Origin: an uncultured SAR86 cluster bacterium
GTDB taxonomy: Bacteria; Pseudomonadota; Gammaproteobacteria; Magnimaribacterales; D2472
Assembly (NCBI GenBank): GCA_905181595.1
Contig: CAJIYI010000001.1
Location: forward strand, 688,847 to 752,846
Direction of reading: 5' to 3'
Length of the DNA: 64,000 nucleotides
Below, piece by piece: positions 1,757-54,565 of this stretch; position 1 is the stretch's first letter; each line of letters starts with the position of its first letter. Position numbers and translations under genes: made by a program. The notes beneath the pieces are model-generated. The model saw only the letters and a program-made list of their open reading frames with translations. It was not told where the DNA came from and made no database searches.

Positions 1757-1771
1757 ACAGCTTACTCAATT

Positions 1772-4307: not shown

Positions 4308-4338
4308 CAGTTTGAAGGTTATGGAAAGCATGCATTAA

Positions 4339-28637: not shown

Positions 28638-29114
28638 ATGAAGAAAATCTATCAATTATTTTTTTTGTCTTTATTTGCCTATAGCTGCGCATCAGAAACC
28701 TATCCGATGGACCCTTATGCTGTTGGCGATATTTCAATTAAAACCTTATTTGAGAACCACGAAGGTTTTCAGGATAATTATGAGGAATACCAACCTGGAA
28801 ACTTGTTGGATCCTGCATTATTTAGGGGTGTTGAAATTTATATGCTTTTTGGAACGTGGTGCCATGACAGCAAAAGAGAAGTTCCTCGGCTGCTTAGTCT
28901 GCTCAATAAATTAGATGTACCGGAGAATCAAATTAATTTGATTGGATTAAATTTCATGAAGAATGACTCTCAGGATAGAGGTAAAAAGTTTCAAATTAAA
29001 AAAACACCAACTTTTGTCTTTCTAAGAAATCAAAAGGAAATTGGAAGAATAGTCGAGATGCCTGAGATAAGCCTAGAGGCTGATCTTCTAAAAATACTTG
29101 GCTCTTTAGATTAA
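28638..29114 (+). CDS. Thioredoxin-like lipoprotein (Thioredoxin_9 type)
   Basis: Lipobox-like AYSC, FGTWCHDSKREVP, TPTF...EIGRIVEMP. Confidence 0.8.
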   Translation: MKKIYQLFFLSLFAYSCASETYPMDPYAVGDISIKTLFENHEGFQDNYEEYQPGNLLDPALFRGVEIYMLFGTWCHDSKREVPRLLSLLNKLDVPENQINLIGLNFMKNDSQDRGKKFQIKKTPTFVFLRNQKEIGRIVEMPEISLEADLLKILGSLD

Positions 29115-30103
29115 TCTAAATTTAACGCTGCGATGCTTTGAGCTTCATCATAGTCTACATAGAAAGTGGCGTATTGCTTTCTAAATTTAGCAATTGGTCC
29201 ATCCATGTCGCAAAGTACTGGCTTTAAAGCAAATTTTTTATTTTCCCAGATAGGTATGTCCTCTTTAACTTGTTTATTTATGTCTTTAATAATTGCAGCG
29301 CCTACACCACCAACTGGCTCTTCACCGTTAATTTTCTTTTGAAGGAATGCAAAACGAACAATGCATTTTTCTCCCTCAATCGGAGTGGTTGAACCAAGCA
29401 ACAAAGTATCACAAATCCCTTCAAATTTAGTTGCGTTATCTCCAGGCCCATTTGAGTAGGCAGTTATTTTTCCCTTAATGGTGCCTCGCGGAGTTTCCAT
29501 ATTAGCTTCTTGAACAGAGGTTCTTTTTTGATTGTCATAAGTTACTTCGAATTCAGGGTAACTCACCACTCCGTGAACATATTGAAAATGAGCTGCATCT
29601 ACTGCATTTTCAGCCATATCTTGAATATGGCAGTCAACAATATATTCATATGAATCAAAGTGATCAGACCACTCTGGATCTAGAATTTCTGGATAAGTTT
29701 CAACTTCGTAAGATGGCTCATCTCCATTAGGATGATACCAAGCATAGATGAGGTTATTTTTTTCTACAGTTGGGTAAGTAAATATTTTAGCTTCTTTCGC
29801 TCTAGGAGGAATATTTTTAGCATAAGGGATATTAGCTACTTTTCCATTTGCATCCCATTCCCAGGCATGAAATGGACATTCAATACAATCTTTTTTTACC
29901 AGTCCACCATGACCTAAATGGGCACCCAGGTGAGGACAATAAGCATCTAACATTGCAGCTTTCCCTGATTCACCACGAAATAAAACCTGATCTTGACCAA
30001 AATATCGAACAGCTTTCACATCACCAATTTTAAGTTCATTGGCATAACTAACTACAAACCATCCAAATGGAAGAGGCATGGGATATCTTTTAGCGGTATT
30101 CAT
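29111..30103 (-). CDS. Rieske non-heme iron oxygenase (KshA/Neverland-like)
   Basis: CPHLGAH...CPFHAW Rieske motif; ENAVDAAHFQYVH and EDIPIWENK mononuclear iron motifs. Confidence 0.88.
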   Translation of the reverse strand: MNTAKRYPMPLPFGWFVVSYANELKIGDVKAVRYFGQDQVLFRGESGKAAMLDAYCPHLGAHLGHGGLVKKDCIECPFHAWEWDANGKVANIPYAKNIPPRAKEAKIFTYPTVEKNNLIYAWYHPNGDEPSYEVETYPEILDPEWSDHFDSYEYIVDCHIQDMAENAVDAAHFQYVHGVVSYPEFEVTYDNQKRTSVQEANMETPRGTIKGKITAYSNGPGDNATKFEGICDTLLLGSTTPIEGEKCIVRFAFLQKKINGEEPVGGVGAAIIKDINKQVKEDIPIWENKKFALKPVLCDMDGPIAKFRKQYATFYVDYDEAQSIAALNLD

Positions 30104-30119
30104 AATTTTTCCTAAGTTT

Positions 30120-30992: not shown

Positions 30993-31086
30993 AGTTTAAC
31001 TAATAAAGTCTATCGATAGAATGTAAAGTGAAAAAAAGTATAAATAGTTTATTAGGTCTTGACGAATATATATTTCACGATACCCA

Positions 31087-34152: not shown

Positions 34153-35223
34153 ATGCCAAAACCACAAGAAAGAAATCAAGAAGAGACCAAAGTAATTTTT
34201 CAATCCTGGTTGGAAGAAAAACTTACAACTGCCTCAGATATCAATGTAGAAATCTTGGGGGGCCCAGAAAATACTGGCTTTTCCAATGAAACTTTAAGTT
34301 TTCAGGTTTCATATTCTCTAGGTGATGAAGAGATTAGCAAAGGCATGGTTGTGAGATTCTATCCCGAAGGTTTTTTTGTTTTTCCTGATTACGATATTCA
34401 TAAGCAATTTCTAATCATGCAAAAGCTGTCCGCTCACAATATCAAAGTTCCGAATGTTTTATGGTACGAGGAAAGCGATGAAGTTTTCGGAACATCATTT
34501 TATGTCATGGAAATGGCTGAGGGCGATGCTCCTTCTGATAATCCACCTTTCCATCAAGAGGGTTGGGTTGCGGATTCCTCAGAAGAGATTCGCGAGAAAA
34601 TTTGGTGGGGCTGGGTTGAAGAAATGTCCAAAGTGCATCAAGTTGATATCTCAACCGGTGAGTATGAGTTTTTGAATAGACCTGAATTAGGCGATAACTA
34701 TCTTGATCAAGAGCTCAATTATTATTTAAATTTTCACGAGTGGGCAATGGAAGGAGAGGCGCATCCAGTTGCTGATCAAGCCCGTGAGTGGTTAATTGCA
34801 AACAAGCCTGTATCAAATCAATCTTCGATTATCTGGGGAGACTCCAGATGTGCAAACATAATGTATTTACCTAATGGTGAAATCTCTGCAGTTCTTGATT
34901 GGGAAATGGCATCTTTGGGTGATCCTTGTATGGACCTAGCATGGGGCATTGCTATTGACGACTGCAACAGCAAGGGTGTTGGCGCAGAAAGGCTACCTGG
35001 ATTTCCAGGACCTGTAGCTACCATAGCAAAATGGGAAGCTTTGACTGGTTTCAGCGCAGATAATTTTGATTATTTCTACACATTAGCTTTGTATAAATTT
35101 ACGGTAATAATGATCAAGGTTGTAAGAAAGCTTGAGCATTACGAAATAATGCCAATGGGTTTAAATGCACACATTAATAATCACGTTACACCTATCTTAG
35201 AAGCAAAACTCAAGGAGCTTTAA
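34153..35223 (+). CDS. Aminoglycoside phosphotransferase/ACAD10-like kinase
   Basis: GFSNET, FYVME, WGDSRCANIMY, AVLDWEMASLGDP. Confidence 0.85.
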   Translation: MPKPQERNQEETKVIFQSWLEEKLTTASDINVEILGGPENTGFSNETLSFQVSYSLGDEEISKGMVVRFYPEGFFVFPDYDIHKQFLIMQKLSAHNIKVPNVLWYEESDEVFGTSFYVMEMAEGDAPSDNPPFHQEGWVADSSEEIREKIWWGWVEEMSKVHQVDISTGEYEFLNRPELGDNYLDQELNYYLNFHEWAMEGEAHPVADQAREWLIANKPVSNQSSIIWGDSRCANIMYLPNGEISAVLDWEMASLGDPCMDLAWGIAIDDCNSKGVGAERLPGFPGPVATIAKWEALTGFSADNFDYFYTLALYKFTVIMIKVVRKLEHYEIMPMGLNAHINNHVTPILEAKLKEL

Positions 35224-35225
35224 TC

Positions 35226-36752
35226 ATGGCTATTTTTTCTATTTCTCACTCAGAGAGTGGTCGCAAACAGCTTTCTCTAAAGAGTCCTGTTGATCTTTCT
35301 CACATTGATACATATGACTGTGCAAACTCAGATGAAATATCTGCGGTCATGACACAGGCAAAAATTGCTCAATCTAAGTGGAAACAAACAACCTTAAAAG
35401 AGAGGGTTGAGTTAATGCATAGAGTTGCAGATGTTGTTATCCAGCAACAAGATAGGATTATGGATGTTGTTATGCGTGAAACTGGCAAGCCTGTCCAAGA
35501 GGCCATGGCTATGGAGGTTTTTTCAGCGGTTGATTCACTGGTTTTCTACGCTAAGAGAGCTGAGAAATGGCTCTCTGATAAAAAAATTAAGATGCATGGG
35601 CCAATGCGATTCTTAAAAAAAACGATTATTACCTATAAGCCTCGAGGTGTTGTTGCAGTGATTACTCCTTGGAATGGCCCATTTATTCTTTCAATTAACC
35701 CTGTCATTCAAGCGATATTATGTGGGAACAGCGTTATTGTTAAACCCTCTGAAGTTACTCCAATGTCAGGCGCTATGGTCCAAGAGATTTTTGCATTAGC
35801 AGATGCGCCTATGCACTTAGTTCAAACTCTTATTGGTGATGGTGAAACTGGTGCTGAACTTATTAGCCAAGGACCAGACAAGGTTTCTTTTACAGGCAGC
35901 GTTGCTACGGGTAAAAAAATTGCTGCAAAGTGTGGTGAAATGCTTATTCCTTTCAGCTTAGAGCTTGGTGGTAAAGATGCAATGATTGTATGTTCAGATG
36001 CTGATGTTAAAGATGCAGCTAGCGGGGCAGTTGTTGGCTCCTTTATGAACGCTGGGCAATACTGCTGCGGCACTGAAAGAATTTATGTGATGTCAGATAT
36101 TTATGATGAATTTGTTGCCGAAGTTGTTTCTATTACCAAATCTTTAGTCCAATCAAATGATTGCAAAGGAGATGTTGGTCCTACGTTTTGGGATAAGCAA
36201 ATCGATATTATTGAAGATCACGTTAATGATGCTATCGCCAAAGGCGCCACTGTTCTTGCTGGTGGAAAAAGAAACCCAGCTTTTGCAGGCCTCTATTTTG
36301 AACCAACCGTGATGACAGAAGTTACCCATGAGATGAAAATCATGAAGGATGAAACTTTTGGTCCGGTCATATGCATTATGAAGGTGAGTTCTGAAGATGA
36401 AGCCTTGTCATTAGCCAATCAATCCCATTATGGTTTAAACGGAAATGTTTGGACAAAAGATTTGGTTAAGGGTCAAAAACTGGCTCGCTCCATAGAAACG
36501 GGAGCTTGCTCGGTAAACGACATGGCGATGAGCTATGGTGTTAATGAAGTTCCCTTTGGCGGCGTTAAAAATAGTGGCTTAGGTGTCGTTAATGGCAAAG
36601 AAGGATTGTTAGGCTATGCTCACGCAATGCCAATTATCATTGGCAAAAAATCAGCTTCTGCTTACCCATATACAGATAAGTCATTTGAGCAGTTACAAGG
36701 CGCTCTTAAGATTTTTTGGGGCAACAGAATAGTACGCAAAATTTTTGGTTAG
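35226..36752 (+). CDS. Aldehyde dehydrogenase
   Basis: ITPWNGP, FTGSVATG, LELGGKD, catalytic GQYC, ETFGPV. Confidence 0.92.
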   Translation: MAIFSISHSESGRKQLSLKSPVDLSHIDTYDCANSDEISAVMTQAKIAQSKWKQTTLKERVELMHRVADVVIQQQDRIMDVVMRETGKPVQEAMAMEVFSAVDSLVFYAKRAEKWLSDKKIKMHGPMRFLKKTIITYKPRGVVAVITPWNGPFILSINPVIQAILCGNSVIVKPSEVTPMSGAMVQEIFALADAPMHLVQTLIGDGETGAELISQGPDKVSFTGSVATGKKIAAKCGEMLIPFSLELGGKDAMIVCSDADVKDAASGAVVGSFMNAGQYCCGTERIYVMSDIYDEFVAEVVSITKSLVQSNDCKGDVGPTFWDKQIDIIEDHVNDAIAKGATVLAGGKRNPAFAGLYFEPTVMTEVTHEMKIMKDETFGPVICIMKVSSEDEALSLANQSHYGLNGNVWTKDLVKGQKLARSIETGACSVNDMAMSYGVNEVPFGGVKNSGLGVVNGKEGLLGYAHAMPIIIGKKSASAYPYTDKSFEQLQGALKIFWGNRIVRKIFG

Positions 36753-36766
36753 TCTTCACCTAAGCA

Positions 36767-37537
36767 TTATTTAGGTTTTGCTACATCAAGATATGCAGGA
36801 CTTTCTCCGCCCCCGTGGACTTCCAGAGCAGATCCTGTAACCCATTCGGCCAGATCAGAAGCAAAAAACACACATGCATTTGCTACGTCTTGTGGCTGAC
36901 CCATCCTCTTTAGAGGTATCGTTTGTGCTACTTTTTTAATCTCAGATTTACTGCCGTAATGCAGGATTGAATTCTCTGTTTCAATGTAACCAACAATGAT
37001 TGAATTTACTTTAATCTTTGGAGCCCATTCAACTGCCAATGTTTTTGTTAAGTTGACCAATGCTCCTTTTGCAGCACCATAAGCGGCACTGCCAGGGGTA
37101 GGTCGAGTAGCGGTAACGCTAGAGATATTAATAATGTTTGAAACCGTTTTCTGTTTAATCATTTTTTTTGCAATTTTTTGGCTCAAGTTCAATGGAGCTG
37201 TTAAATTGAGATCAATAATTGCTTCATGAAACTTTGGTGATGCTGTAAGCGAGTCTGCCATTGGAGCTCCTCCAGCATTATTGATCAGAACATCTATTGA
37301 CTTATATTTTGATGCGATATCTTTTATGGCACTATCTATTGATTCTGTGTTCCTGATATCACATTCAATAAAATATCCTGCATTATCTTTAGATTGAATT
37401 TTTCGTTTAGGCTTATTTCTGGCAAGTATTATTACGTTCGCTTGATGCTTTAAAAAAGTTTTTGTGATCTCAAGTCCAATGCCCTTAGAACCCCCAGTAA
37501 TTACAACAGTTTTATTTTTAAAATTTATATTCGTCAC
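36767..37537 (-). CDS. Short-chain dehydrogenase/reductase (Rv3549c-like)
   Basis: TGGSKGIG, NNAGGAP, YGAAK, LAVEWAPK, LEVHGGGE.PAYL. Confidence 0.88.
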   Translation of the reverse strand: MTNINFKNKTVVITGGSKGIGLEITKTFLKHQANVIILARNKPKRKIQSKDNAGYFIECDIRNTESIDSAIKDIASKYKSIDVLINNAGGAPMADSLTASPKFHEAIIDLNLTAPLNLSQKIAKKMIKQKTVSNIINISSVTATRPTPGSAAYGAAKGALVNLTKTLAVEWAPKIKVNSIIVGYIETENSILHYGSKSEIKKVAQTIPLKRMGQPQDVANACVFFASDLAEWVTGSALEVHGGGESPAYLDVAKPK

Positions 37538-37718
37538 TCAATTCACCATTGTTGTTAGATAAATAATTATAACCCTGCCAATAAAATCTTTTAAGTAGAT
37601 AAGGATTTTAAACTACTTGTAAAGTTGACATATTATTTATGATTGATACCCATTGATTCATGAATAAGTTTGTATAATCTAGTCATTAATACATTGAAAT
37701 CAATCTAGGAGTATATCT

Positions 37719-38351
37719 ATGAAAATTGCAATTCTTGGTGGAACAGGGGCTCTTGGTAAAGGATTGGCCTCTAGATGGATCAAGGCTAATCACGAAGTCT
37801 TAATTGGTAGCAGAGATATAAATAAAGCTCAGGAAATAGCCGTTGAGCTTGGTCTTGAGTCATCAGCTGGAATGCTCAATATAGATGCTGCAGACCTTGG
37901 CGATATAGCTTGTTTAACAGTTCCATTTGCTCACCAAGAGTCAACATTATCAAGCATTGGCAATAAGTTAGAGGATAAGATTTTAATTGATGCGACAGTT
38001 CCCCTGGTTCCACCCAAGGTTATGAGAGTTCAACTTCCACCAGAAGGCTCTGCTGCTATGAAAGCTCAAAGTATCATGGGAGAGGGCACTAAAGTTGTTT
38101 CAGCTTTTCAGAATATCTCTGCTGAATTATTGCAAACAGATAAAGAAATTGATTGTGATGTCCTGGTATCTGGAGATTTTCTAGAAGCAAGAGCTACTGT
38201 TATAGAGCTTGCAGCAGATGCAGGCTTAAAGGGTTGGCATGCTGGTCCTTTATGTAATTCAGTCGCTGCCGAAGCTTTGACTTCAATTTTAATTGCCATT
38301 AATAAAAAACATTCCTTGCAACATTCTGGCATAAAGATCACAGGCCATTAG
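37719..38351 (+). CDS. npdG: F420H2:NADP+ oxidoreductase (NADPH-dependent F420 reductase)
   Basis: GGTGALGKGLA, IGSR, LTVPF, DATVPL, VVSAFQN, DCDVLV, AGPL.NS..AEALTS.LI.IN; heads the cof operon. Confidence 0.9.
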   Translation: MKIAILGGTGALGKGLASRWIKANHEVLIGSRDINKAQEIAVELGLESSAGMLNIDAADLGDIACLTVPFAHQESTLSSIGNKLEDKILIDATVPLVPPKVMRVQLPPEGSAAMKAQSIMGEGTKVVSAFQNISAELLQTDKEIDCDVLVSGDFLEARATVIELAADAGLKGWHAGPLCNSVAAEALTSILIAINKKHSLQHSGIKITGH

Positions 38352-38363
38352 CTTTCGAGAAGT

Positions 38364-39128
38364 ATTATTAACTCAATTAATCTAACAGCTTTAGAAGATT
38401 TTCCTCTGATCAATCCAGGCGATAATCTGGCCGACTTAATTATTCAAAAATTAACTCAGCAGAATATTCATCTTGATGATGGCGACATTTTAACTGTTGC
38501 TCAAAAGGTAGTATCAAAAAGTGAAAATAGATATCTTGATATATCCACCTTAACTCCAAGCTCAGAAGCCATATCACTTGCAAATAAGATTGATAAAGAT
38601 CCGCAATTTGTTCAAGCCATCCTAAATGAATCAAAGCAAGTTGTTCGCCACAGAATGGGAGTGTTAATTGTTGAGCATAAATTAGGTTTTATTCATGCTA
38701 ATGCTGGCATAGACCGCTCTAATATAGATCAATCATTAAATCAGGTTCTCCTGCTTCCCGAAGATCCGGATTTATCATCAGATAAATTACGCTCAACTAT
38801 TAGCAAACATTTCGGAAAAAACATTGCCCTAATTATTACTGACACCATGGGTCGTCCTTTTAGGAATGGCATCGTAGGGTTTGCTATAGGCAGCTCTAAT
38901 TTAGAGTCTGTTGTTGACGAGAGAGGTAAACAGGACATATACGGCAATATTTTAAAAGTAACTCAAATAGCAGTTGCAGACGAGCTGGCAGCAGCAGCTT
39001 CGTTGTTGATGGGCCAAGCAGATCAAAAAAAACCAATTGTTCTCATTAGAGGTTATAAATTTAACTTTTCTACATCAAGCAATGGAAAGGATCTTATTAG
39101 GAGCGAGGAAGAGGATTTATTTAGGTGA
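38364..39128 (+). CDS. cofE: Coenzyme F420-0:L-glutamate ligase; true start lies upstream of the ORF-track ATG at 38655
   Basis: Open frame from 38352 encodes FPLINPGDNL, AQKVVSKSE, ANAGIDRSN, LLPEDPD, DTMGRPFRNG, AVADELAAAASLLMGQ, DLFR; no ATG/GTG/TTG before the conserved N-terminus, ATT at 38364 or 38367 assumed. Confidence 0.9.
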   Translation: MINSINLTALEDFPLINPGDNLADLIIQKLTQQNIHLDDGDILTVAQKVVSKSENRYLDISTLTPSSEAISLANKIDKDPQFVQAILNESKQVVRHRMGVLIVEHKLGFIHANAGIDRSNIDQSLNQVLLLPEDPDLSSDKLRSTISKHFGKNIALIITDTMGRPFRNGIVGFAIGSSNLESVVDERGKQDIYGNILKVTQIAVADELAAAASLLMGQADQKKPIVLIRGYKFNFSTSSNGKDLIRSEEEDLFR

Positions 39129-40054
39129 AAAATTATCTACTTTTATGCGGTGGGGTCGGTGGAGCCAAGCTAGCCCTTGGATTTTCTAAGATTCTCTCTG
39201 ATTCTAATTATACGATTGCTGTAAATACCGGCGATGATTTCAAACACTTTAATCTTAAGATTTGTCCAGATCTTGATACCGTGATGTATACCTTATCTAA
39301 CGAGTCTGATTTATCTAAAGGCTGGGGTAGGGCAAACGAATCTTGGGAAATGTTATCGGCTCTTAAGCAACTTGGAGGAGAAACATGGTTTCAGTTAGGA
39401 GACAAAGATCTTGCTACTCATATTATTCGCACACAACTCATTGCCAATGGCTCTAGTTTGTCGGAAGCTACACAGGAACTAACCCAACGATTCGGTTTGA
39501 AGTCAAATATTTTACCCATGACTGATGATTTGGTTGAAACATACATTCAAACTCAAAACAGACTCTTGTCCTTTCAAGAGTATTTTGTGAAGTTTCAATG
39601 CGAGCCCTCTGTGACTGATTTTGTTTTTAAGGGTCTTGATAAAGCTAAGTTTAATCCTCTCATCGATCTTGATGCATTTGATGAAATAGTTATTTGTCCC
39701 TCTAACCCTTTTGTGAGCATAAGCCCAATTATTCAATTAGATCCCCTTAATCAATTTTTAAAATCGCATCCAGAAAGAGTAAGTGTTGTTAGCCCAATTG
39801 TTAATTCAAAATCTTTGAAGGGACCAACCTCTAAAATGATGAATGAGCTTGGCATGGATACATCGGTTTTGACTATTGCAAACTATTACTCTGAATACGC
39901 TCGAACTTTATTTATAGATTCTACCGACCATCAAGAAGAATCTTTGATCGCAGGCATGGGATACAAGGTATCGCTGGCAAACTTAGTTATGAATAATCTG
40001 GGCTCTAAAATCAATCTCGCGCAATCGGTAATTGATTATTTGGAAGCAAAATAA
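39125..40054 (+). CDS. cofD: 2-phospho-L-lactate transferase
   Basis: GGVGGAKL, VNTGDDF, ICPDLDTVMY, WFQLGDKDLATH, PMTDD, FQEYFV, PSNPFVSI.PI, KGPTSKMM. Confidence 0.95.
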   Translation: MKNYLLLCGGVGGAKLALGFSKILSDSNYTIAVNTGDDFKHFNLKICPDLDTVMYTLSNESDLSKGWGRANESWEMLSALKQLGGETWFQLGDKDLATHIIRTQLIANGSSLSEATQELTQRFGLKSNILPMTDDLVETYIQTQNRLLSFQEYFVKFQCEPSVTDFVFKGLDKAKFNPLIDLDAFDEIVICPSNPFVSISPIIQLDPLNQFLKSHPERVSVVSPIVNSKSLKGPTSKMMNELGMDTSVLTIANYYSEYARTLFIDSTDHQEESLIAGMGYKVSLANLVMNNLGSKINLAQSVIDYLEAK

Positions 40055-40055
40055 C

Positions 40056-40631
40056 GTGCAGGTATCAGCTTTCATTCCTATTAAGAAATACAGTCACTCA
40101 AAAGGGCGTCTTGCTAGCATTCTATCAGAGCAGCAAAGATCAGATCTATCAAAGGCAATGGCCACTCAAACTATTAAGGCTTTAACTCACTCCAATATCT
40201 GCGATTCAATTACCTTGGTGACAAATGATCCTCATCTGATTATCGAGGGCGCGTCTACTTTCTTTACCAGAGCATCCTTAAACCAAGCGCTAAATGAAGC
40301 TATTGCTTGCAACGACTCTAATAATCCAATATTAATTATGCATGCAGACTTACCGAGAATTAACGAAAGAGACCTCGATAATCTTGTTACCTCCTTCAAT
40401 AAATCGTTTATCAGCATAGTGCCTGATATTGATGAATCTGGAACAAATTGCCTTCTGTACGATCCAGCAATGAAATTTAATCTTCAATTTGGTATTAATA
40501 GCTATGCTTTATTTTTAAGGGAGTTTAAGGCGAATGATTATCGTTGGAATCAACATTCTATTGAGTCACTGCAGTATGACCTTGACTCAGAAGATGATTA
40601 CTTCAAACTAAAGGATTATGTTCGAGGTTAA
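40056..40631 (+). CDS. cofC: 2-phospho-L-lactate/PEP guanylyltransferase
   Basis: IPIK...SKGRLA, LNQAL, HADLP, PD....GTN, FG..S, DLDSEDD; GTG at 40056 right after the cofD stop. Confidence 0.88.
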   Translation: MQVSAFIPIKKYSHSKGRLASILSEQQRSDLSKAMATQTIKALTHSNICDSITLVTNDPHLIIEGASTFFTRASLNQALNEAIACNDSNNPILIMHADLPRINERDLDNLVTSFNKSFISIVPDIDESGTNCLLYDPAMKFNLQFGINSYALFLREFKANDYRWNQHSIESLQYDLDSEDDYFKLKDYVRG

Positions 40632-43041
40632 TAGATTGGAAATTCAGGAACATTCTAATAATAGCTTAAAAAAGCTCCTTACTTCAGAGACTTGTCTTGA
40701 AGATGACTTATTGCACCTGTCTAAAATTGCTCTATCTGATTCGCTAGTACAGCATGCATTCTCCAAAAAACAGAACTATTACCCAGATCAACTAACCTAT
40801 TCTCCAAAGGTTTTCATACCTCTTACTTTTTTATGCAGAGATGTTTGCCATTACTGTACCTTTGCCAAAACACCCAAAAAGGTGGAGTCGCCATATTTAT
40901 CAATTGAGGAAGTTATAAGAATTGCCAAGGAGGGCGAAGAGAAGGGCTGTCATGAAGCACTATTTACCCTTGGGGACAAACCTGAACTAAGGTACAAAGC
41001 TGCCAGAGATGCGCTGGCAGAAATGGGCTATCAGACAACAAATGAATACGTTGCTGCCTGCGCGGAAGCAGTCTTAGAGCACACATCATTGATACCTCAT
41101 CTTAATCCTGGGTGCTTAACTGAAGCCGAGCTAGATATGCTTAAACCCTTAAGTGGCTCTATGGGACTAATGGTTGAGTCCTTATCGGCAAACCTCTGCA
41201 AGAAAGGGCAGCCACATTATGGCTCTCCAGATAAAGAACCAATTTTTAGGATGCAAACCCTTATCAATGCTGGCAAAAGAAATATTCCATTTACAACAGG
41301 CATTCTTATAGGCATTGGCGAGACAAGGCTAGAAAGGCTTGAGTCTATTTTTGCTATAGCAGAACTTCATCAAGAATATGGGCATATTCAAGAAGTGATA
41401 GTTCAAAATTTTAAAGCCAAAGCAAACACATTAATGGAGCATTCTCCTGAGCCATCTTTTGATGAGTTAATTTGGACAATTGCAATGGCAAGATTAATTT
41501 TACCTGGCGATATTAGTCTTCAGGTTCCACCTAACCTTAATCCACACCACCTCGAGAGACTCATTGAATCTGGCATTAATGATTTTGGTGGCATCTCACC
41601 TGTAACAAAAGATTTTGTTAATCCTGAAGCGCCATGGCCTGAAATTAAAAAATTAACTTCCACAGCAAATCTTCTCGGGCAAGACTTGAGGGCTAGAGCT
41701 ACACTTTACCCAGCTTATTTTAAAAATCTTGCTTTACACACATCTAAGAATGTAGCTTCAAAATTGTTGCAGAAAGTTGATTCTCAAAACCTGATTCGTT
41801 CAGATAAGTGGGTATCAGGGGTCAGTACAACCATTCCTTTGTATTCAAATACGAGTTTTAAATCAGATATTCAAAATAGCATTAAAAAGATTCATGAAAA
41901 TTCAGATCTTGATGCTTTGCAACATATTCTGACAGCCAGAGACAGAGATTTTAAATATTTGATGGATTATGCAGATGATTTAAAGACTCACGTGCATGGG
42001 CATGAGATTACTTGCGTTATGAACAGAAATATTAACTACACCAATATCTGTTCGTTTAAATGTAATTTTTGTGCTTTCTCTAAAGGTACGGGTCATTCTG
42101 ATTTGAGAGGTAAACCATACAATATTTCACATGATGAGATAGCAAGAAGAACACTTGAAGCTATAGATAGAGGGGCAACTGAAGTTTGTCTTCAGGGTGG
42201 CATCCATCCTAAATATACTGGGAATACCTACTTAGATATAGTCAAAACAATTCGTTCTGTTTCAGAGACTATTCACATTCATGCATTTTCTCCCCTAGAA
42301 ATTGATCACGGCAGACGAACATTAAATATCTCGGTTGAAGAGTTTCTCATTGAGCTAAAAAATGCAGGACTCAACTCATTGCCAGGAACAGCAGCAGAAA
42401 TTCTGCATGATGATATTAGAGCTATTATTTGTCCAGATAAGTTAAATTCTCAGGAATGGGCTGATGTCATTATGGCAGCTCACTCAGTAGGATTGCCCAC
42501 AACATCGACAATGATGTTTGGCCATGTTGAAAACATGTCTCACGTTGCTAGGCACTTTGGAGAGCTTAAAGCTATTCAAAATAAAACCAATGGCATAACG
42601 GAGTTTGTGCCTTTGCCTTTTGTTGCAAGTGAAGCTCCCATATACATGCGAGGTTTATCAAGGCCCGGTCCAACTTTCAAAGAATCTGTGTTGGTTCACG
42701 CTGCTGCAAGAATTTTCTTTTATGATTCCATTGATAATATTCAAGGCTCATGGGTCAAAATGGGTCTTCCAGGCTTAAAATTCCTATTATCAGCTGGGAT
42801 AAATGACGTTGGCGGAATATTGATGAATGAAAGCATAACAAAAGCAGCAGGAGCCTCCTTCGGCCAAGAACTCAATCTTGCTGATGTGGATCGAATTGCT
42901 AAATCTCTTGATTTGGACTTAGTGCAAAGAAATACTCTTTATCAAAAGCTTGATAGCCAGATATCAGACTTATCAAAATCTCAAAGCATTCCCTTGCTTC
43001 CCATTCTTAATGAATACCACAAACCTTCGGCAACCATTTAA
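40618..43041 (+). CDS. fbiC: FO synthase, fused CofG-CofH radical SAM enzyme
   Basis: TYSPKVFIPLT.LCRDVCHYC (CofG) and NRNINYTNICSFKCNFCAF, EVCLQGG, PGTAAEIL, TEFVPLPFV (CofH). Confidence 0.95.
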   Translation: MFEVNRLEIQEHSNNSLKKLLTSETCLEDDLLHLSKIALSDSLVQHAFSKKQNYYPDQLTYSPKVFIPLTFLCRDVCHYCTFAKTPKKVESPYLSIEEVIRIAKEGEEKGCHEALFTLGDKPELRYKAARDALAEMGYQTTNEYVAACAEAVLEHTSLIPHLNPGCLTEAELDMLKPLSGSMGLMVESLSANLCKKGQPHYGSPDKEPIFRMQTLINAGKRNIPFTTGILIGIGETRLERLESIFAIAELHQEYGHIQEVIVQNFKAKANTLMEHSPEPSFDELIWTIAMARLILPGDISLQVPPNLNPHHLERLIESGINDFGGISPVTKDFVNPEAPWPEIKKLTSTANLLGQDLRARATLYPAYFKNLALHTSKNVASKLLQKVDSQNLIRSDKWVSGVSTTIPLYSNTSFKSDIQNSIKKIHENSDLDALQHILTARDRDFKYLMDYADDLKTHVHGHEITCVMNRNINYTNICSFKCNFCAFSKGTGHSDLRGKPYNISHDEIARRTLEAIDRGATEVCLQGGIHPKYTGNTYLDIVKTIRSVSETIHIHAFSPLEIDHGRRTLNISVEEFLIELKNAGLNSLPGTAAEILHDDIRAIICPDKLNSQEWADVIMAAHSVGLPTTSTMMFGHVENMSHVARHFGELKAIQNKTNGITEFVPLPFVASEAPIYMRGLSRPGPTFKESVLVHAAARIFFYDSIDNIQGSWVKMGLPGLKFLLSAGINDVGGILMNESITKAAGASFGQELNLADVDRIAKSLDLDLVQRNTLYQKLDSQISDLSKSQSIPLLPILNEYHKPSATI

Positions 43042-43047
43042 CTACTT

Positions 43048-43929
43048 ATGAAAAATAAATTATTCGACCTGGCTATTATTTTTATTGGATACGTCGTCTG
43101 CATCTATTCAATGGTGATCACATGGAATCTACTTATAGAAACTAATATCTTCGTTAGATTATTAGCCTGTCATGTCGAAGCAACTATCTTTATATATATA
43201 TTGAGTGTCGCATTTAAAAATTCGAGTTGGTACGATGCATTTTGGTCTGTCATTCCAGTCGTATTAACTATTTTATGCTGGATTGATATACATGCTGCAG
43301 GGAATGTACTTAGAGCAGGAATGATGTTTGATGTAATGGTTTTTTGGGCAATTAGATTAACCTATAACTGGGCTAGATCATGGGATGGATTTACTCATGA
43401 AGATTGGCGTTATGTCATGATGAAAGGGAAGGCTAAAAATAAATTTGAGTACTTTTTAACCGACTTCGGAGCCATACATCTAATCCCAACATTATCAGTG
43501 TTTATGGCCTTACTGCCAATGAATTACACTCTGTATTATCCTGGTCCTGAAGTATTCTGGTTAGATTGGGTGGCTTATGCTATTGGTATATCAGCGGTAT
43601 TTATTCAAATTATCTCTGATCAGCAAATGTATAACTTTAGACGGACATTAATTGAGCCTCAAACAATGCAATCAGGGCTATGGTTTTATTCACGTCATCC
43701 TAATTATCTTGGCGAAATACTCTTTTGGTTTAGTTTCTTTATTTTCTCTTTATCTAACGGTTTAGCAGCTTCATGGCTGATTATTGGCACAATTACTATG
43801 TACGCATTGGTTGCCATTACTTCTGTTGCTATGATGGATAGTAGATCTTTGCAAAGACGTCATGATTTTAAAGATTACATGGATACGACCCCTGCAATAT
43901 TCTTTAACTTTTTTAAGAGGAAAGCCTAA
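43048..43929 (+). CDS. DUF1295 membrane protein (steroid 5-alpha-reductase-like)
   Basis: NSSWYDAFWS, EDWRY, GLWFYSRHPNYLGEILFW. Confidence 0.85.
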   Translation: MKNKLFDLAIIFIGYVVCIYSMVITWNLLIETNIFVRLLACHVEATIFIYILSVAFKNSSWYDAFWSVIPVVLTILCWIDIHAAGNVLRAGMMFDVMVFWAIRLTYNWARSWDGFTHEDWRYVMMKGKAKNKFEYFLTDFGAIHLIPTLSVFMALLPMNYTLYYPGPEVFWLDWVAYAIGISAVFIQIISDQQMYNFRRTLIEPQTMQSGLWFYSRHPNYLGEILFWFSFFIFSLSNGLAASWLIIGTITMYALVAITSVAMMDSRSLQRRHDFKDYMDTTPAIFFNFFKRKA

Positions 43930-45230
43930 TGCGTTATTTTTTTAGCTTACTAACTTCATTGTTTCTGATTTTACCAATTTGCTCGGGAGAACTGGCCTCT
44001 GCTTTGGATCAAAATCTAAGTGGTGTGATGACCAAGGTCACTGATTGGAGGCATCATTTTCACCAATACCCAGAGCTATCTAATAGAGAGTTTAAAACGC
44101 AAAAATCTATCAGTGAAGCTCTTATTGAAATGGGTCTTGAGCCTAATACCTCATTTGGTAAAACTGGAGTAACTGCATTTATAAGAGGCCAAAATCCAGG
44201 GCCTTTAATTGCATTAAGAGCAGATATTGATGGGTTGCCAGTGACTGAAAAATTGAATCTTCCATTTTCATCAAAAGAAAGAACTAACTATCAGGGCAAT
44301 GATGTTGGAATTATGCATGCGTGTGGCCACGATGCTCATATAGCAACTCTTTTGGGTGTTGCTAGCTTCCTGTCACAAAATACTGACAAACTAGATGGCG
44401 ATATTCTATTAATCTTTCAACCGGCAGAAGAGGGCGCACCTGAAGGAGAAGAGGGAGGGGCTGAATTAATGTTAAAAGAAGGGCTCTTTGAAGCTGAAAA
44501 ACCAGATGCTATTTTTGGTATGCATGTTTCCAATGCCAAACATGGACAACTTTGGACAAGACCAGGGCCAATTATGGCTTCCGCAGAAGCTTTTAGGATT
44601 ACAGTTGAGGGCAAACAAACGCATGGATCGCGTCCATGGAATGGTGTCGATCCTATTGTTGCTGCCTCTGATATCGTTACTACTTTGCAAACTATTGTTA
44701 GCAGAAGACTAAATCTTCTTGATAGCCAAGCTGTAGTGACCGTAGGCATCATGAAAGGCGGCACCAGAAATAACATTATTCCAGCAAGTGCTTATTTAGA
44801 AGGAACTATTAGAACGTTTAAAGACTCTTATGCAGATCAAATTAGAGATGAAATATCTGTTATTGCTAATAATATTGCTGCTGCTCATCATGCCAAAGCT
44901 AATGTCGAGTTCAAAGTCTATGGTGGCTATCCAGTAACCTATAACGATATTGAGCTAGTAGATAAGTATGCATCTTCTCTATCTAGAGCAGCTGATGGTA
45001 ATTATTATGAGGCTAAGGTTCCAAGGACAGGCGCTGAGGACTTCTCATTCTTTGCCCAGCAAGTGCCAGGAATGTTCTTTTTCTTGGGAGTTAATTCGCC
45101 TGGAGTAGAAGATTCTCCTACGAATCATTCACCATATTTTTATGTTGATGATTCAGCCCTTACAAATGGCTTGAAAGCTTTTGTGAATCTAGTTGAAGAT
45201 TTTTCCAAAGACTATAATTTAGATAATTAG
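43929..45230 (+). CDS. M20D amidohydrolase
   Basis: HQYPELSNRE, ALRADIDGLP, MHACGHDAH, FQPAEEG, AEDFS, NHSP. Confidence 0.9.
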   Translation: MRYFFSLLTSLFLILPICSGELASALDQNLSGVMTKVTDWRHHFHQYPELSNREFKTQKSISEALIEMGLEPNTSFGKTGVTAFIRGQNPGPLIALRADIDGLPVTEKLNLPFSSKERTNYQGNDVGIMHACGHDAHIATLLGVASFLSQNTDKLDGDILLIFQPAEEGAPEGEEGGAELMLKEGLFEAEKPDAIFGMHVSNAKHGQLWTRPGPIMASAEAFRITVEGKQTHGSRPWNGVDPIVAASDIVTTLQTIVSRRLNLLDSQAVVTVGIMKGGTRNNIIPASAYLEGTIRTFKDSYADQIRDEISVIANNIAAAHHAKANVEFKVYGGYPVTYNDIELVDKYASSLSRAADGNYYEAKVPRTGAEDFSFFAQQVPGMFFFLGVNSPGVEDSPTNHSPYFYVDDSALTNGLKAFVNLVEDFSKDYNLDN

Positions 45231-45272
45231 TATTAGCAAAAATTAATTTAACCTAAATCTTTTGTTACTTTG

Positions 45273-46136
45273 CTAGGTATATTTTCTGTTATGAACTTTA
45301 GCAACAAGATTGGCTAAATGAGGGTTAAATTTATCTGGAAATGCCTCCTCAATAGTTTGTTCGTGATCAACAAAGTTTAAGATACCCTCTTTATAGCTAG
45401 GTCGAGCTTGTAGATTTTTCCAATAGCTTGATATCTTAGGAAATGTATCCATCTGAAGAACTGGGCCTAAGCCAAGCTCCTCCAATCTATTGAAACAGCA
45501 CATTAGATTAATATCTGCATGACCAAAGTCATCAAATAAAAACCCTTGATCGGATAACTGATTCTCAATTTCAAATAAGCCGTTAACAAAGGATTCATAG
45601 GCCAAAGGACCAATTTTATTTTTTATAGATAAAAAATACATCATAACAAAAACAACTTTCCTCTCCCTTCTGGGGTGATTGAAAATGATATTTAAAATTG
45701 TTTTTAGGCTAAGTTTTTTAATAAGGACTTCAATTAAACCGGTTGAGAAGAGTGGTATTGATGTTCCAAAACTTTGCCCAAGTTTTACGCTTTCATCAAT
45801 CGTTGTGTCGTAGACCCATTTTCTTAAGGTTTCTTTTTTTTTTGGATCTAAAGGCCACAAATTTATTGCATTATTTCCTTGATACTCATCTAATCTCTCA
45901 ATAATGTAGGCACTATCTCTTACGAACTCATTGTTTATTTTAAGAACAGGTACGACACCTGTTGGATTAATCTCTTTTAGAAAGTCTTCGCTAATGTTCT
46001 CTGCCTCATCGTGCTGATCACAGAGTTTGATTACCTTGTGATCATACTCAAGCCCTTTTTCATGAAGGGCTACTCTTACCATTTGACTACAAAGCGACCA
46101 CTTTGCATGATACAAAAGAAGATTGGGCTTGCTCAT
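45273..46136 (-). CDS. Glutathione S-transferase family protein (long, PcpC/LigF/GDAP1-like)
   Basis: LYHAKWSLCSQMVRVALHEKG, INPTGVVPVL, DSAYI, HADI. Confidence 0.82.
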   Translation of the reverse strand: MSKPNLLLYHAKWSLCSQMVRVALHEKGLEYDHKVIKLCDQHDEAENISEDFLKEINPTGVVPVLKINNEFVRDSAYIIERLDEYQGNNAINLWPLDPKKKETLRKWVYDTTIDESVKLGQSFGTSIPLFSTGLIEVLIKKLSLKTILNIIFNHPRRERKVVFVMMYFLSIKNKIGPLAYESFVNGLFEIENQLSDQGFLFDDFGHADINLMCCFNRLEELGLGPVLQMDTFPKISSYWKNLQARPSYKEGILNFVDHEQTIEEAFPDKFNPHLANLVAKVHNRKYT

Positions 46137-46138
46137 TA

Positions 46139-47047
46139 CTAATCGTCGTTAGCAGGCATTTTACCTTTAAGAAACTCTGGTATGTGTGATACGTTACTAT
46201 GATCTGCAATTCTTAAGCATTGATTTTCTATGGTTCCAATGCCCTTGATAGTTGTTGACAATATATCCCCGTCCTTTAAACACTTACCTTGAGTTGCGCC
46301 AACACCAGCAGGCGTTCCTGTAAAAATTAAATCTCCAGGCTCTAAAGTGATAAATTCTGATACATAAGAGATGATATATGGGATATCAAAGATTAAGTCA
46401 TTGGTATTATCTTTTTGTCTTAATTCACCATTAACTGAGCACTCTAATTCCAAAGAGTTTGGATCTTCAAATTCATCTGGAGAAACTAAAATTGGTCCTA
46501 TTGGCCCAAAGGTATCAAATGATTTACCAAGATTAAACTGTGGAGGTGTAGCATGAAATTGAACCGCTCTATCTGATATATCCTGACCAACTGTAAGTCC
46601 TGCAACATGATCCCAGGCGTTTTCTTTTGATATGTTTTTACCTTCTTTGCCAATTACTGCTACTAATTCTGCTTCGTAGTCGACAAGATCACTTCTCATT
46701 TCTATGTTTTCAAATGGCCCAACAATACATGAAGTATGCTTTGTAAATATCATAGGGAAGAGTGGAATTTCCATTCCTGATTCTTCGGCATGGTTTTTAT
46801 AATTTAGTCCAACAGCAAAACAATTTCTTGAATTAGTTATCGGTGCTCCCATGCTCTCATTCGTGATTGTTCCTGAGGGTTCAAAATCATCGATCTGAGT
46901 GTATAGCTTTGACAGAGCATCTAATGAATTTATTGATTGCGAGGGATCATTTGAGAGCGCTCCATTTGAAATATCGGATAGCTCATAATAGCTTTCATTT
47001 TTGATTAACGCTGCGTTTCCATTTACATTACCTAACTTAAAACCCAT
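46139..47047 (-). CDS. Fumarylacetoacetate hydrolase family protein
   Basis: VGLNYKNH, DYEAEL, QDISDR, GKSFDTFGPIGP, PGDLIFTGTPAGVG. Confidence 0.92.
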   Translation of the reverse strand: MGFKLGNVNGNAALIKNESYYELSDISNGALSNDPSQSINSLDALSKLYTQIDDFEPSGTITNESMGAPITNSRNCFAVGLNYKNHAEESGMEIPLFPMIFTKHTSCIVGPFENIEMRSDLVDYEAELVAVIGKEGKNISKENAWDHVAGLTVGQDISDRAVQFHATPPQFNLGKSFDTFGPIGPILVSPDEFEDPNSLELECSVNGELRQKDNTNDLIFDIPYIISYVSEFITLEPGDLIFTGTPAGVGATQGKCLKDGDILSTTIKGIGTIENQCLRIADHSNVSHIPEFLKGKMPANDD

Positions 47048-47093
47048 GTTTTCTCTCCTTAAAAGTAGCTTAACTAAGCGATTTTAGCGATGA

Positions 47094-47172
47094 GACCATG
47101 AACACAGATAAGGGGGTCTGCATTCATGGTCCAAAGAAACCTTAACAACTTCTCTTAGGAAGAAGGGTTAAG
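47094..47172 (-). other. Two tandem RNA hairpins between the TonB-dependent receptor and FAH genes
   Basis: Minus strand: CTTAACCCTTCT-TCCTAAG-AGAAGTTGTTAAG, then GACCATGAATGCAGA-CCCCCTTA-TCTGTGTTCATGGTC (15-bp stem with two G-U pairs). Confidence 0.6.
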
Positions 47173-47188
47173 CGCTATTCCAACACTA

Positions 47189-49657: not shown

Positions 49658-49691
49658 AAATTCCCCATAAATTTTAATTAAAGAATTATCT

Positions 49692-49731
49692 TAGCCACTT
49701 GGTTAGGAAATTACAACTATCCAGTTGGATA
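49692..49731. promoter_or_regulatory. Two putative operator sites in the divergent receptor/GST promoter
   Basis: TAGCCACTTGGTTA (49692-49705) and TATCCAGTTGGATA (49718-49731), imperfect palindromes matching the site at 56183. Confidence 0.55.
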
Positions 49732-49771
49732 AAATATGAATATATGTTTTACTGTTTTTTAGAAGATTCAA

Positions 49772-54559: not shown

Positions 54560-54565
54560 GTAATG

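What the first reader, a model, noticed from the sequence alone, without database searches (positions are those of the whole stretch)
37719..43041. Complete, frameshift-free coenzyme F420 biosynthesis operon in a probable streamlined marine Gammaproteobacterium
Seen: fno(npdG)-cofE-cofD-cofC-fbiC in one tightly coupled operon, both radical-SAM CxxxCxxC motifs intact, base composition similar to its flanks. Known: F420 is typical of methanogens and Actinobacteria and has been shown in only a few Proteobacteria; CofE+CofD+CofC imply full F420 rather than only FO. CofE here (about 255 aa) lacks the FbiB nitroreductase domain that reduces dehydro-F420 in the PEP route. Inference: the organism makes F420 by the 2-phospholactate or 3-phosphoglycerate (3PG-F420) route, or uses a separate reductase, and recharges it from NADPH via Fno for lipid, steroid or aromatic catabolism. 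No F420-dependent LLM or FDOR enzyme is visible in this window.
Basis: partly seen in the sequence, partly recalled or inferred. Interest (0 to 1): 0.85.

Follow-up and report, generated by a model that had tools for sequence, protein, structure and literature searches.

The report
F420 cofactor operon in SAR86 bacteria
A small-genome marine bacterium of the abundant SAR86 group carries an intact, conserved gene set for making the unusual redox cofactor F420 plus enzymes predicted to use it, a trait limited to a minority of SAR86 genera.

Summary
Window 37719-43041 encodes npdG(fno)-cofE-cofD-cofC-fbiC, and every product scores above its NCBIfam equivalog cut-off. Both radical-SAM motifs are intact.

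One caveat: cofE has no ATG/GTG/TTG at its N-terminus. A conserved ATT/ATC codon is the likely start.

The organism is a SAR86 bacterium. Its 16S lies on the same 1.19 Mb contig and matches probe SAR86-1245 with 0 mismatches.

Across 266 genomes of its order:
- cofD, fbiC and an F420-type luciferase-like oxidoreductase occur in the same 6 of 22 genera and in no other.
- KshA-like Rieske oxygenases occur in 5 of those 6 genera and in no other.

The genome also holds four F420-class LLMs above cut-off and one FDOR-A.

CofC carries Gly/Leu/Leu/Ser at the four positions tied to 3-phosphoglycerate use, so 3PG-F420 is unlikely. No FbiB-C/FbiE reductase was found, so 2-phospholactate versus PEP stays open.

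Contigs from four metatranscriptomic libraries cover the operon.

This is a new member of a known kind. I found no paper linking F420 and SAR86. Interest is moderate.

The parts
37607..37636 (+). Promoter-like site (TTTAAA-18-TATTAT) in the divergent SDR/npdG intergenic region. Weak evidence only.
   Evidence: promoter-like sites are fewer than in shuffles, so this is a consensus match only. Contigs of 3 of 4 RNA libraries break in 37380-37678.
37719..38351 (+). npdG/fno, NADPH-dependent F420 reductase (210 aa)
   Evidence: TIGR01915 196.7 bits, cut-off 149.8. PF03807.
38364..39128 (+). cofE, F420-0:L-glutamate ligase. The frame is open from 38352. Proposed ATT start at 38364 or 38367 (254 or 253 aa). 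No canonical start before 38655.
   Evidence: TIGR01916 281.9 bits, profile 2-244 matched to frame residues 10-258. Sequence. Conserved ATT/ATC in the clade. Coding-type substitution pattern in codons 4-101.
39125..40054 (+). cofD, 2-phospho-L-lactate (LPPG:FO) transferase (309 aa)
   Evidence: TIGR01819 272.8 bits, cut-off 257.45.
40032..40631 (+). cofC, guanylyltransferase (199 aa). Gly154 at the 3-PG diagnostic position.
   Evidence: TIGR03552 118.6 bits, cut-off 105. Alignment A1 with invariant K18, D106, S157, D183, D185. Profile alignment to 7p97, 6bwg and 2i5e.
40618..43041 (+). fbiC, fused CofG+CofH FO synthase (807 aa)
   Evidence: TIGR03550 478.7 and TIGR03551 502.4 bits. CxxxCxxC at nt 40834-40857 and 42049-42072.
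43048..43929 (+). DUF1295 membrane protein, 6 nt after fbiC. A neighbour in 18 of 20 SAR86 loci, but the family is not confined to F420 genera.
   Evidence: PF06966 134 bits. Synteny. Homologues in 18 of 22 genera.
43929..45230 (+). M20 amidohydrolase, with start overlapping the DUF1295 stop. Follows the operon only in the window's own family. Role unknown.
   Evidence: PF01546 and TIGR01891 328.8 bits. Present in 14 of 14 f1 loci and 0 of 6 f3 loci.
36767..37537 (-). Divergent SDR oxidoreductase, a conserved upstream neighbour.
   Evidence: NF005893 332.6 bits. Present upstream in most SAR86 loci.
29111..30103 (-). KshA-like Rieske oxygenase 8 kb upstream. Its family co-occurs with the F420 genes at genus level.
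   Evidence: PF19298 104 bits plus PF00355. Order-wide profile.

Best explanation
This is a working coenzyme F420 biosynthesis operon of a SAR86 (order Magnimaribacterales) bacterium.

Proposed mechanism:
1. FbiC makes the deazaflavin FO from tyrosine and the riboflavin intermediate.
2. CofC activates a three-carbon phospho-acid with GTP, and CofD joins it to FO.
3. CofE adds the gamma-glutamyl tail.
4. Fno, the first gene, keeps the cofactor reduced from NADPH.
5. F420H2 then serves four or five luciferase-like oxidoreductases and one FDOR-A encoded elsewhere in the 1.4 Mb genome. These probably act in the breakdown of lipid-derived, steroid-like or aromatic substrates.

Shown here: gene identity and integrity, conservation, and co-occurrence with F420-class enzymes.

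Inferred:
- The product is classical F420, not 3PG-F420.
- The three-carbon donor is about 50% 2-phospholactate, 35% PEP with an unrecognised dehydro-F420 reductase, and at most 10% 3-PG.
- cofE is translated from an AUU/AUC start codon in this SAR86 family.
- The catabolic role.
For: Gene identity:
- All five products exceed their NCBIfam equivalog cut-offs, and both radical-SAM motifs are present.
- CofC keeps the invariant K18, D106, S157, D183 and D185 that align with the Mg/substrate ligands K17, D116, S166, D188 and D190 of Mtb-FbiD.

Conservation:
- 20 of 20 SAR86 loci fetched from six genera have the same gene order.
- The SAR86 FbiC sequences form one clade (SH-aLRT 100) that splits along the two host families.

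Use of the cofactor:
- The genome has 2 TIGR03617 (442.7, 396.6 bits) and 2 TIGR03619 (206.7, 195.6 bits) F420-class LLMs, one TIGR00026 FDOR (90.5 bits), and a fifth LLM below cut-off.
- Order-wide, cofD (48/266), fbiC-CofH (47/266) and TIGR03617 (51/266) fall in the same 6 of 22 genera and in none of the other 16.
- In the second family an LLM sits inside the operon.

Not FO only:
- No photolyase domain was found, and ribD is present.

Product type:
- CofC has G154 at the S162 position, and L/L/S at the M91, C95 and H145 positions.

cofE start:
- Codons 4-101 differ from a congener at codon positions 12/5/43, with 40 synonymous and 14 non-synonymous codon changes. The rest of the gene gives 15/7/62 and 58/17.
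- In L102 and L104 a stop codon directly precedes ATT ATT / ATT ATC.

In situ:
- Contigs of four metatranscriptomic libraries (three studies) cover 25-30 of 30 bins. They bridge npdG-cofE-cofD with 0-1 differences and show no indels in the operon.

Catabolic link:
- LLM and FDOR neighbours are acyl-CoA ligases, an acyl-CoA dehydrogenase, and DmpFG-like plus KshA-like genes.
- KshA_C is present in 5 of the 6 F420 genera and 0 of the other 16.
Against: - No chemistry was done, so F420 itself is not shown.
- cofE lacks a canonical start. AUU/AUC initiation is inferred, and four of 15 family members have a distant upstream TTG/ATG in an overlapping frame that cannot be excluded.
- Neither a 2-phospholactate source nor a dehydro-F420 reductase is identifiable, so one pathway step is missing whichever route is used. 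The genome is only 87.6% complete.
- The RNA-library contigs cannot exclude contaminating DNA. No silent control stretch could be laid, and one library bridges the intergenic region.
- Genus-level co-occurrence may reflect as few as two lineages (three genera in each of two families). The F420 genera also have the larger genomes, so the KshA link may be shared ancestry rather than function.
- TIGR03617/03619 names are annotation-based predictions, not tested functions.
Confidence: 0.8

Rival explanations
1. The cluster serves only to make FO, for example as a light-harvesting chromophore for photolyase in a surface-ocean cell. On this view cofC/D/E are dispensable or decaying, and cofE is already dead for want of a start codon.
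For: cofE has no ATG/GTG/TTG at its N-terminus. SAR86 lives in sunlit water (paper text).
Against: No PF00875 photolyase domain was found in the genome (genome 87.6% complete). cofC, cofD and cofE are intact in 20 of 20 loci. The cofE N-terminal codons evolve like coding sequence. No genus has fbiC without cofD. F420-class enzymes track the operon.
Confidence: 0.04
2. The operon makes 3PG-F420, as in Mycetohabitans, which would avoid the need for both 2-phospholactate and a dehydro-F420 reductase.
For: No FbiB-C/FbiE homologue and no known 2-PL source are present. Hasan et al. propose that 3-PG use evolved in exactly such a background.
Against: The diagnostic position (Mrhiz S162) is Gly154 here, as in Mtb-FbiD G163. 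M91, C95 and H145 correspond to Leu, Leu and Ser. The C95L and S162 substitutions abolished or reduced 3-PG use in the published mutants. CofD also filters substrates and was not assessed.
Confidence: 0.08
3. The operon is a recent horizontal acquisition or a binning or assembly artefact, not a native SAR86 trait.
For: Distribution is patchy: 6 of 22 genera. Only 16 of 390 other genomes of the class carry cofD.
Against: The operon lies on the same 1.19 Mb contig as the SAR86 16S. GC equals that of the flanks. The flanking genes are syntenic across genera. The FbiC tree is monophyletic for SAR86 and mirrors the family split. The stretch is held by 18 runs from 10 studies.
Confidence: 0.03

Closest known systems
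Proteobacterial F420 operons (Paracoccus denitrificans and Oligotropha carboxidovorans, as summarised in the review PMC8498797) and the same-order operons of other marine Gammaproteobacteria found here, e.g. Biformimicrobium ophioploci NKW57 (L027) and an Azotimanducaceae MAG (L009)
   Same: Fused FbiC, stand-alone CofE without a nitroreductase domain, and Fno as reducer. Ten non-SAR86 loci have the identical order npdG-cofE-cofD-cofC-fbiC.
   Different: Identity is only 40-58%. The host is a 1.4 Mb streamlined oligotroph. cofE in this SAR86 family has no canonical start, whereas the outgroups use ATG/GTG. CofC is about 20-50 residues shorter at the C-terminus.
Mycobacterial FbiA/B/C/D pathway (PEP route)
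   Same: Fused FbiC. The CofC/FbiD substrate ligands are conserved, including Gly at the G163 position.
   Different: There is no FbiB C-terminal dehydro-F420 reductase domain, no stand-alone FbiE-like protein and no Fgd.
Archaeal CofC/D/E/G/H pathway (2-phospholactate route)
   Same: Stand-alone CofE of about 250 aa. CofC is most similar by single-sequence search to M. mazei CofC 2i5e (E 2.6e-8).
   Different: CofG and CofH are fused here. No CofA/CofB-type source of 2-PL is known in bacteria. The upstream ALDH is closest to succinic-semialdehyde dehydrogenase, not lactaldehyde dehydrogenase.
Mycetohabitans rhizoxinica 3PG-F420 cluster
   Same: A Gram-negative host with CofE lacking the reductase domain.
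   Different: The 3-PG diagnostic residues are absent. This genome has F420-class oxidoreductases, whereas the review states that M. rhizoxinica lacks known ones.

Membership tests
Coenzyme F420 biosynthesis pathway | FO synthase with two radical-SAM domains (CofG plus CofH, or fused FbiC), each with CxxxCxxC | tested here: met
   TIGR03550 478.7 and TIGR03551 502.4 bits. Motifs at residues 73 and 478.
Coenzyme F420 biosynthesis pathway | CofC/FbiD guanylyltransferase with conserved Lys, three Mg-binding Asp and the carboxylate-binding Ser | tested here: met
   TIGR03552 118.6/105. K18, D106, S157, D183 and D185 are invariant in 25 sequences and align to the Mtb-FbiD ligands.
Coenzyme F420 biosynthesis pathway | CofD/FbiA transferase, equivalog level and not a YvcK-like paralogue | tested here: met
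   TIGR01819 272.8/257.45. The control genomes ring only for three archaeal F420 producers.
Coenzyme F420 biosynthesis pathway | CofE gamma-glutamyl ligase that can be translated | tested here: inconclusive
   The domain is complete (TIGR01916 281.9 bits) and under coding constraint. However, only ATT/ATC start candidates exist, and initiation was not tested.
Coenzyme F420 biosynthesis pathway | F420 detected chemically | not testable with these tools
   Needs LC-MS or fluorescence on cells or a heterologous host.
FbiB-type bifunctional ligase / PEP route | C-terminal nitroreductase-fold dehydro-F420 reductase domain, or a stand-alone FbiE | tested here: not met
   CofE matches PRK13294 positions 11-243 of 449 only. 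Of three PF00881 hits, one is RutE-like (270.6 bits). One is YdjA-like (TIGR03553 only 28.6 bits against 249.55) and is present in 18 of 22 genera regardless of F420. One is broken and has no FbiB similarity.
3PG-F420 producers | Ser/Thr at the position of Mrhiz-CofC S162 | tested here: not met
   The window has Gly154 in FGINS, against FSGPS in 7p97 and FGPDS in 6bwg.
Fno (F420H2:NADP+ oxidoreductase) | Equivalog-level match over the full length | tested here: met
   TIGR01915 196.7/149.8, profile positions 1-220.
SAR86 clade (order Magnimaribacterales) | 16S rRNA target of probe SAR86-1245; small, low-GC genome | tested here: met
   0 mismatches at C1:219187-219203, within the 16S. The probe sequence was taken from PMC8701031. 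The genome is 1.41 Mb at 38% GC. The order has 4 families, 22 genera and genomes of 0.7-1.8 Mb, matching the description in PMC11582366.

The most novel reading that the evidence does not exclude
F420 is the dedicated low-potential hydride carrier of a steroid/aromatic-ring catabolic module that sets a minority of SAR86 genera apart from the rest. It is made by a route that needs a still-unknown enzyme, either a bacterial source of 2-phospholactate or a new kind of dehydro-F420 reductase. CofE output is deliberately throttled by a conserved AUU/AUC start codon, which may control glutamyl-tail length or CofE dosage.
Probability: 0.3. Interest if true: 0.7.

Novelty: new member of a known kind. 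Interest (0 to 1): 0.5.

Why it matters
SAR86 makes up as much as about 6% of surface-ocean microbial communities, and its metabolism is known almost only from genomes (PMC11582366, passages seen). An F420 system maintained in a genome of about 1.5 Mb implies strong selection. It also marks a clear functional split among SAR86 genera.

It adds Gammaproteobacteria of global abundance to the short list of non-actinobacterial bacteria in which F420 is likely to matter. The review reports experimental proof only for Alpha- and Betaproteobacteria and Chloroflexi.

The missing reductase or 2-PL source bears on an open question in F420 biosynthesis. The non-canonical cofE start would also make automatic gene callers truncate or miss cofE in these genomes.

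Tried and rejected
Rejected ideas:
1. YdjA-like nitroreductase (C1:1021043-1021597) as a stand-alone dehydro-F420 reductase. It occurs in 188 of 266 genomes and 18 of 22 genera, and is absent from three F420 genera.
2. Nitroreductase-fold ORF at window 51750-52412. It is RutE-like malonic semialdehyde reductase.
3. DUF1295 as an F420-linked family. Homologues occur in 143 of 266 genomes and 18 of 22 genera.
4. The upstream APH-family kinase plus ALDH (34153-36752) as a CofB/CofA-like 2-PL source. The ALDH is closest to succinic-semialdehyde dehydrogenase (463 bits against a cut-off of 521). The APH protein has no NCBIfam match. The pair is next to the operon only within SAR86. This remains unsupported speculation.
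5. Stop-codon read-through fusing Fno to CofE. In the window the two frames coincide across a TAG, but L097, L100, L102 and L104 have different frames.
6. Terminator scan. The 7 sites found compare with 5.6 expected, so it is uninformative.

Limits of the evidence:
Parts of the operon without cover in X18 and X19 are no evidence.
- Literature: 'F420'+'SAR86' gave 7 papers. I read passages of 2 (both about hydrogenases); the other 5 are digester, biogas or oral-plaque papers by title. 'deazaflavin'+'SAR86' gave 0. 'F420'+'Gammaproteobacteria'+'biosynthesis'+'fbiC' gave 7, none on marine gammaproteobacteria by title. MAG and SAG names gave nothing.
- Ney et al. 2017 is not held, so its genome survey and supplements may already list such genomes.
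- Supplementary tables of PMC11582366 (e.g. Table S5) were not visible and may list F420 genes.
- Family names such as 'Suzuki' could not be mapped to the coded families f1-f4.

Full report
OBSERVATION

The + strand of window 37719-43041 holds five tightly packed ORFs. Pfam and NCBIfam identify them as follows:

| Gene | NCBIfam model | Bits | Cut-off |
|---|---|---|---|
| npdG/fno | TIGR01915 | 196.7 | 149.8 |
| cofE | TIGR01916 | 281.9 | 180.65 |
| cofD | TIGR01819 | 272.8 | 257.45 |
| cofC | TIGR03552 | 118.6 | 105 |
| fbiC, CofG domain | TIGR03550 | 478.7 | 213.35 |
| fbiC, CofH domain | TIGR03551 | 502.4 | 374.1 |

The two CxxxCxxC motifs lie at FbiC residues 73 and 478. GC content (0.38) matches the flanks.

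CofE aligns only to the ligase half of the bifunctional FbiB model. All genome hits to LLM and FDOR families lie outside the window.

One thing was missed. After the npdG stop (TAG, 38349-38351) the cofE frame runs 101 codons before the first ATG/GTG/TTG at 38655. The family profiles already match from frame residues 10 and 17.

THE cofE START

I compared the npdG-cofE junction in the window, in three close public relatives and in 20 loci from six genera of the same order.

- In the window's own family (three genera; 14 loci plus the window), none has a canonical start just before the conserved N-terminal strand. Eleven of the 15 have none anywhere upstream in the open frame. The other four (L097, L098, L106, L107) have a TTG or ATG at least 14 codons further upstream, in a frame that overlaps npdG. 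I cannot exclude those.
- All of them carry ATT, ATC or ATA about 6-8 nt after a purine-rich, Shine-Dalgarno-like run. In L102 and L104 a TAA stop directly precedes ATT ATT / ATT ATC, so translation there can only begin at such a codon or later.
- In the second family (6 of 6 loci), and in outgroups, a TTG, ATG or GTG sits at the homologous place.

Codons 4-101 of the window differ from a congener mostly at third positions (12/5/43), with 40 synonymous against 14 non-synonymous codon changes. The rest of the gene behaves the same way (15/7/62; 58 against 17). Contigs from independent libraries reproduce the junction with 0-1 differences and no indels, so this is not an assembly error.

I infer AUU/AUC initiation at 38364 or 38367. 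This has not been shown.

THE ORGANISM

The window lies on a 1.19 Mb contig of a 1.41 Mb, 38% GC genome that is 87.6% complete. The same contig carries a 16S gene. That 16S compares as follows:
- 99% identical to SAG AH-558-F20;
- 85-86% to three other gammaproteobacterial genomes;
- 81.6% to E. coli.

The FISH probe SAR86-1245, with its sequence taken from a table in PMC8701031, matches with 0 mismatches inside the 16S. GAM42a has 1 mismatch, and BET42a and ALF968 have 2 each.

The order as held by the tool has 266 genomes of 0.7-1.8 Mb in 4 families and 22 genera. This agrees with the description of SAR86 (order Magnimaribacterales) in PMC11582366 (passages seen).

DISTRIBUTION

Within the order, three markers occur in the same six genera and in none of the other 16. 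Genus counts exclude the window's own genome.

| Marker | Genomes | g1 | g6 | g10 | g15 | g18 | g20 |
|---|---|---|---|---|---|---|---|
| cofD (TIGR01819) | 48/266 | 27/31 | 5/9 | 3/3 | 8/8 | 3/3 | 1/1 |
| FbiC CofH domain (TIGR03551) | 47/266 | 25/31 | 7/9 | 3/3 | 7/8 | 3/3 | 1/1 |
| F420-class LLM (TIGR03617) | 51/266 | 30/31 | 9/9 | 3/3 | 4/8 | 3/3 | 1/1 |

No genus has fbiC without cofD. Kin are not independent: the six genera fall in two families, so there may be only two lineages.

A FbiC tree (40 rows; 21 candidate rows were dropped for stops, X or truncation; quick IQ-TREE, LG+G4) puts all SAR86 sequences in one clade (SH-aLRT 100). That clade splits along the two families. This fits an old presence with losses, although the tree is unrooted.

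In an even sample of the class, cofD occurs in 16 of 390 other genomes. The same gene order occurs in 10 non-SAR86 loci among the 45 I tabulated of the 80 fetched. F420 genes are therefore uncommon in Gammaproteobacteria, but not unique to SAR86.

USE OF THE COFACTOR

- The genome has five LLMs. Four pass F420-class cut-offs (TIGR03617 twice, TIGR03619 twice). The fifth is nearest TIGR03619 but below cut-off.
- It has one FDOR-A (TIGR00026).
- None of the LLMs is an Fgd, so Fno is the only recognisable F420 reducer.
- No photolyase domain was found, and ribD is present.
- In the second family, a dienelactone-hydrolase-like gene and/or an LLM is inserted between cofC and fbiC.

Neighbours of the F420-class genes:
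- two acyl-CoA ligases (LLM 2);
- a DmpG/DmpF-like pair with a Rieske plus KshA_C oxygenase (LLM 5);
- an acyl-CoA dehydrogenase and a TonB receptor (FDOR).

The other three LLMs have uninformative neighbours.

KshA_C oxygenases occur in 47 of 266 genomes. They are found in five of the six F420 genera (not g15) and in none of the other 16. A copy often lies within 10 kb of the operon, as in the window at 29111-30103. This supports the suggested catabolic role but does not prove it. The F420 genera may simply share a larger accessory gene set.

WHICH ROUTE

Hasan et al. (PMC8764529; Results and Discussion read) tie 3-PG use to Ser/Thr at Mrhiz-CofC S162, with M91, C95 and H145 contributing.

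I built a profile of 25 CofC sequences and aligned it to the solved structures. At the diagnostic motif the window reads FGINS, against FSGPS in 7p97 and FGPDS in 6bwg. The window therefore has Gly154 at the S162 position, and Leu, Leu and Ser at the other three. 3PG-F420 is thus unlikely.

The same paper states that CofC assays cannot separate 2-PL from PEP, and that CofD also selects. I could not assess CofD.

A PEP route needs a dehydro-F420 reductase. The three nitroreductase-fold genes give no candidate:
- one is RutE-like;
- one is YdjA-like and is widespread irrespective of F420;
- one is a broken copy with no FbiB similarity.

A 2-PL route needs a source of 2-PL that is unknown in bacteria. 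I put 2-PL at about 50%, PEP with an unrecognised reductase at 35%, and 3-PG at no more than 10%.

IN SITU PRESENCE

The stretch is held by 18 runs (at least half of its sampled words) from 10 studies. Two of these may be the source sample. Six metatranscriptomic runs from three studies hold 38-81% of the words.

Contigs of four of these RNA runs cover 25-30 of 30 bins of 36700-45300 at 95-100% identity. In three of the four, contigs break in the SDR-npdG intergenic region. DNA carry-over is not excluded, and I had no second call for a silent control stretch.

WHAT IS KNOWN

The review PMC8498797 (sections 23 and 27 and passages read) reports experimental F420 only in Actinobacteria, Chloroflexi, two Alphaproteobacteria (trace amounts) and Mycetohabitans. 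It does not contain the word Gammaproteobacteria.

I found no open paper that links F420 or deazaflavin with SAR86. The large SAR86 comparison PMC11582366 has no occurrence of 'F420', 'luciferase' or 'cofactor' in its main text. Its supplements, and Ney et al. 2017, could not be seen.

From memory only: NCBIfam/TIGRFAMs has an F420-class LLM family named after a Colwellia gene. If so, predicted F420 use in marine Gammaproteobacteria is not new in databases.

VERDICT

This is a real, conserved and probably expressed F420 system. It is a new member of a known kind, with three points worth following:
- its restriction to a minority of SAR86 genera together with KshA-like oxygenases;
- the missing reductase or 2-PL step;
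- the conserved non-canonical cofE start.

Noticed in passing
window 38349-38376; L097-L110: cofE of one SAR86 family has no canonical start codon. A conserved ATT/ATC/ATA follows a purine-rich run. The sister family and outgroups use TTG/ATG/GTG. Gene callers would probably truncate cofE to 157 aa (ATG 38655).
   Followed up: yes
L111 5324-6310; L114 5205-6146 and 6143-7024(-); L116 6260-7135: In the second SAR86 family the F420 operon carries inserts between cofC and fbiC: a dienelactone-hydrolase-family protein (two genera) and a luciferase-like monooxygenase (two genera).
   Followed up: partly
window 29111-34089 and 45273-55975: The operon sits in a catabolic island. It holds a KshA-like Rieske oxygenase, Amidohydro_2, an SDR, a sulfotransferase, GST-like proteins, an FAA hydrolase, a TonB receptor, an extradiol-dioxygenase-like protein, a RutE-like reductase, an arylsulfatase-like protein and an MhpA-like flavin hydroxylase.
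   Followed up: partly
G000:C1:1186667-1187200 (L094 about 1495-2061, minus strand): A nitroreductase-fold gene is broken into three frames near the end of contig C1. It is either a pseudogene or assembly error at the contig end.
   Followed up: partly
G000:C2:51033-52103: The ribD match (268 bits) has one in-frame TGA inside the matched stretch. Not examined.
   Followed up: no
L088 versus L089; L007: The 16S is 99% identical to SAG AH-558-F20, while FbiC is only 71% identical and CofC 51%. Protein divergence is very high at near-identical 16S.
   Followed up: no
L010, L031, L040, L041, L044: Records titled Limisphaerales, Klebsiella pneumoniae or Enterobacteriaceae MAGs carry F420 operons. 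These are near-identical in order, and close in FbiC, to marine Gammaproteobacteria or Binatia. Mis-binning or loose labels are likely.
   Followed up: no
L008 about 7640-7843: The UBA3413 locus has a run of N (232 bases within the ORF span) across the 3' part of cofC. I therefore left it out of the CofC alignment and the FbiC tree.
   Followed up: no
run X7: One run labelled 'freshwater metagenome' holds 95% of the stretch's sampled words, although all other holders are marine.
   Followed up: no
window 4001-6000: A local GC rise to 0.486, against about 0.38 elsewhere, over the ORF 4339-6024. Not examined.
   Followed up: no
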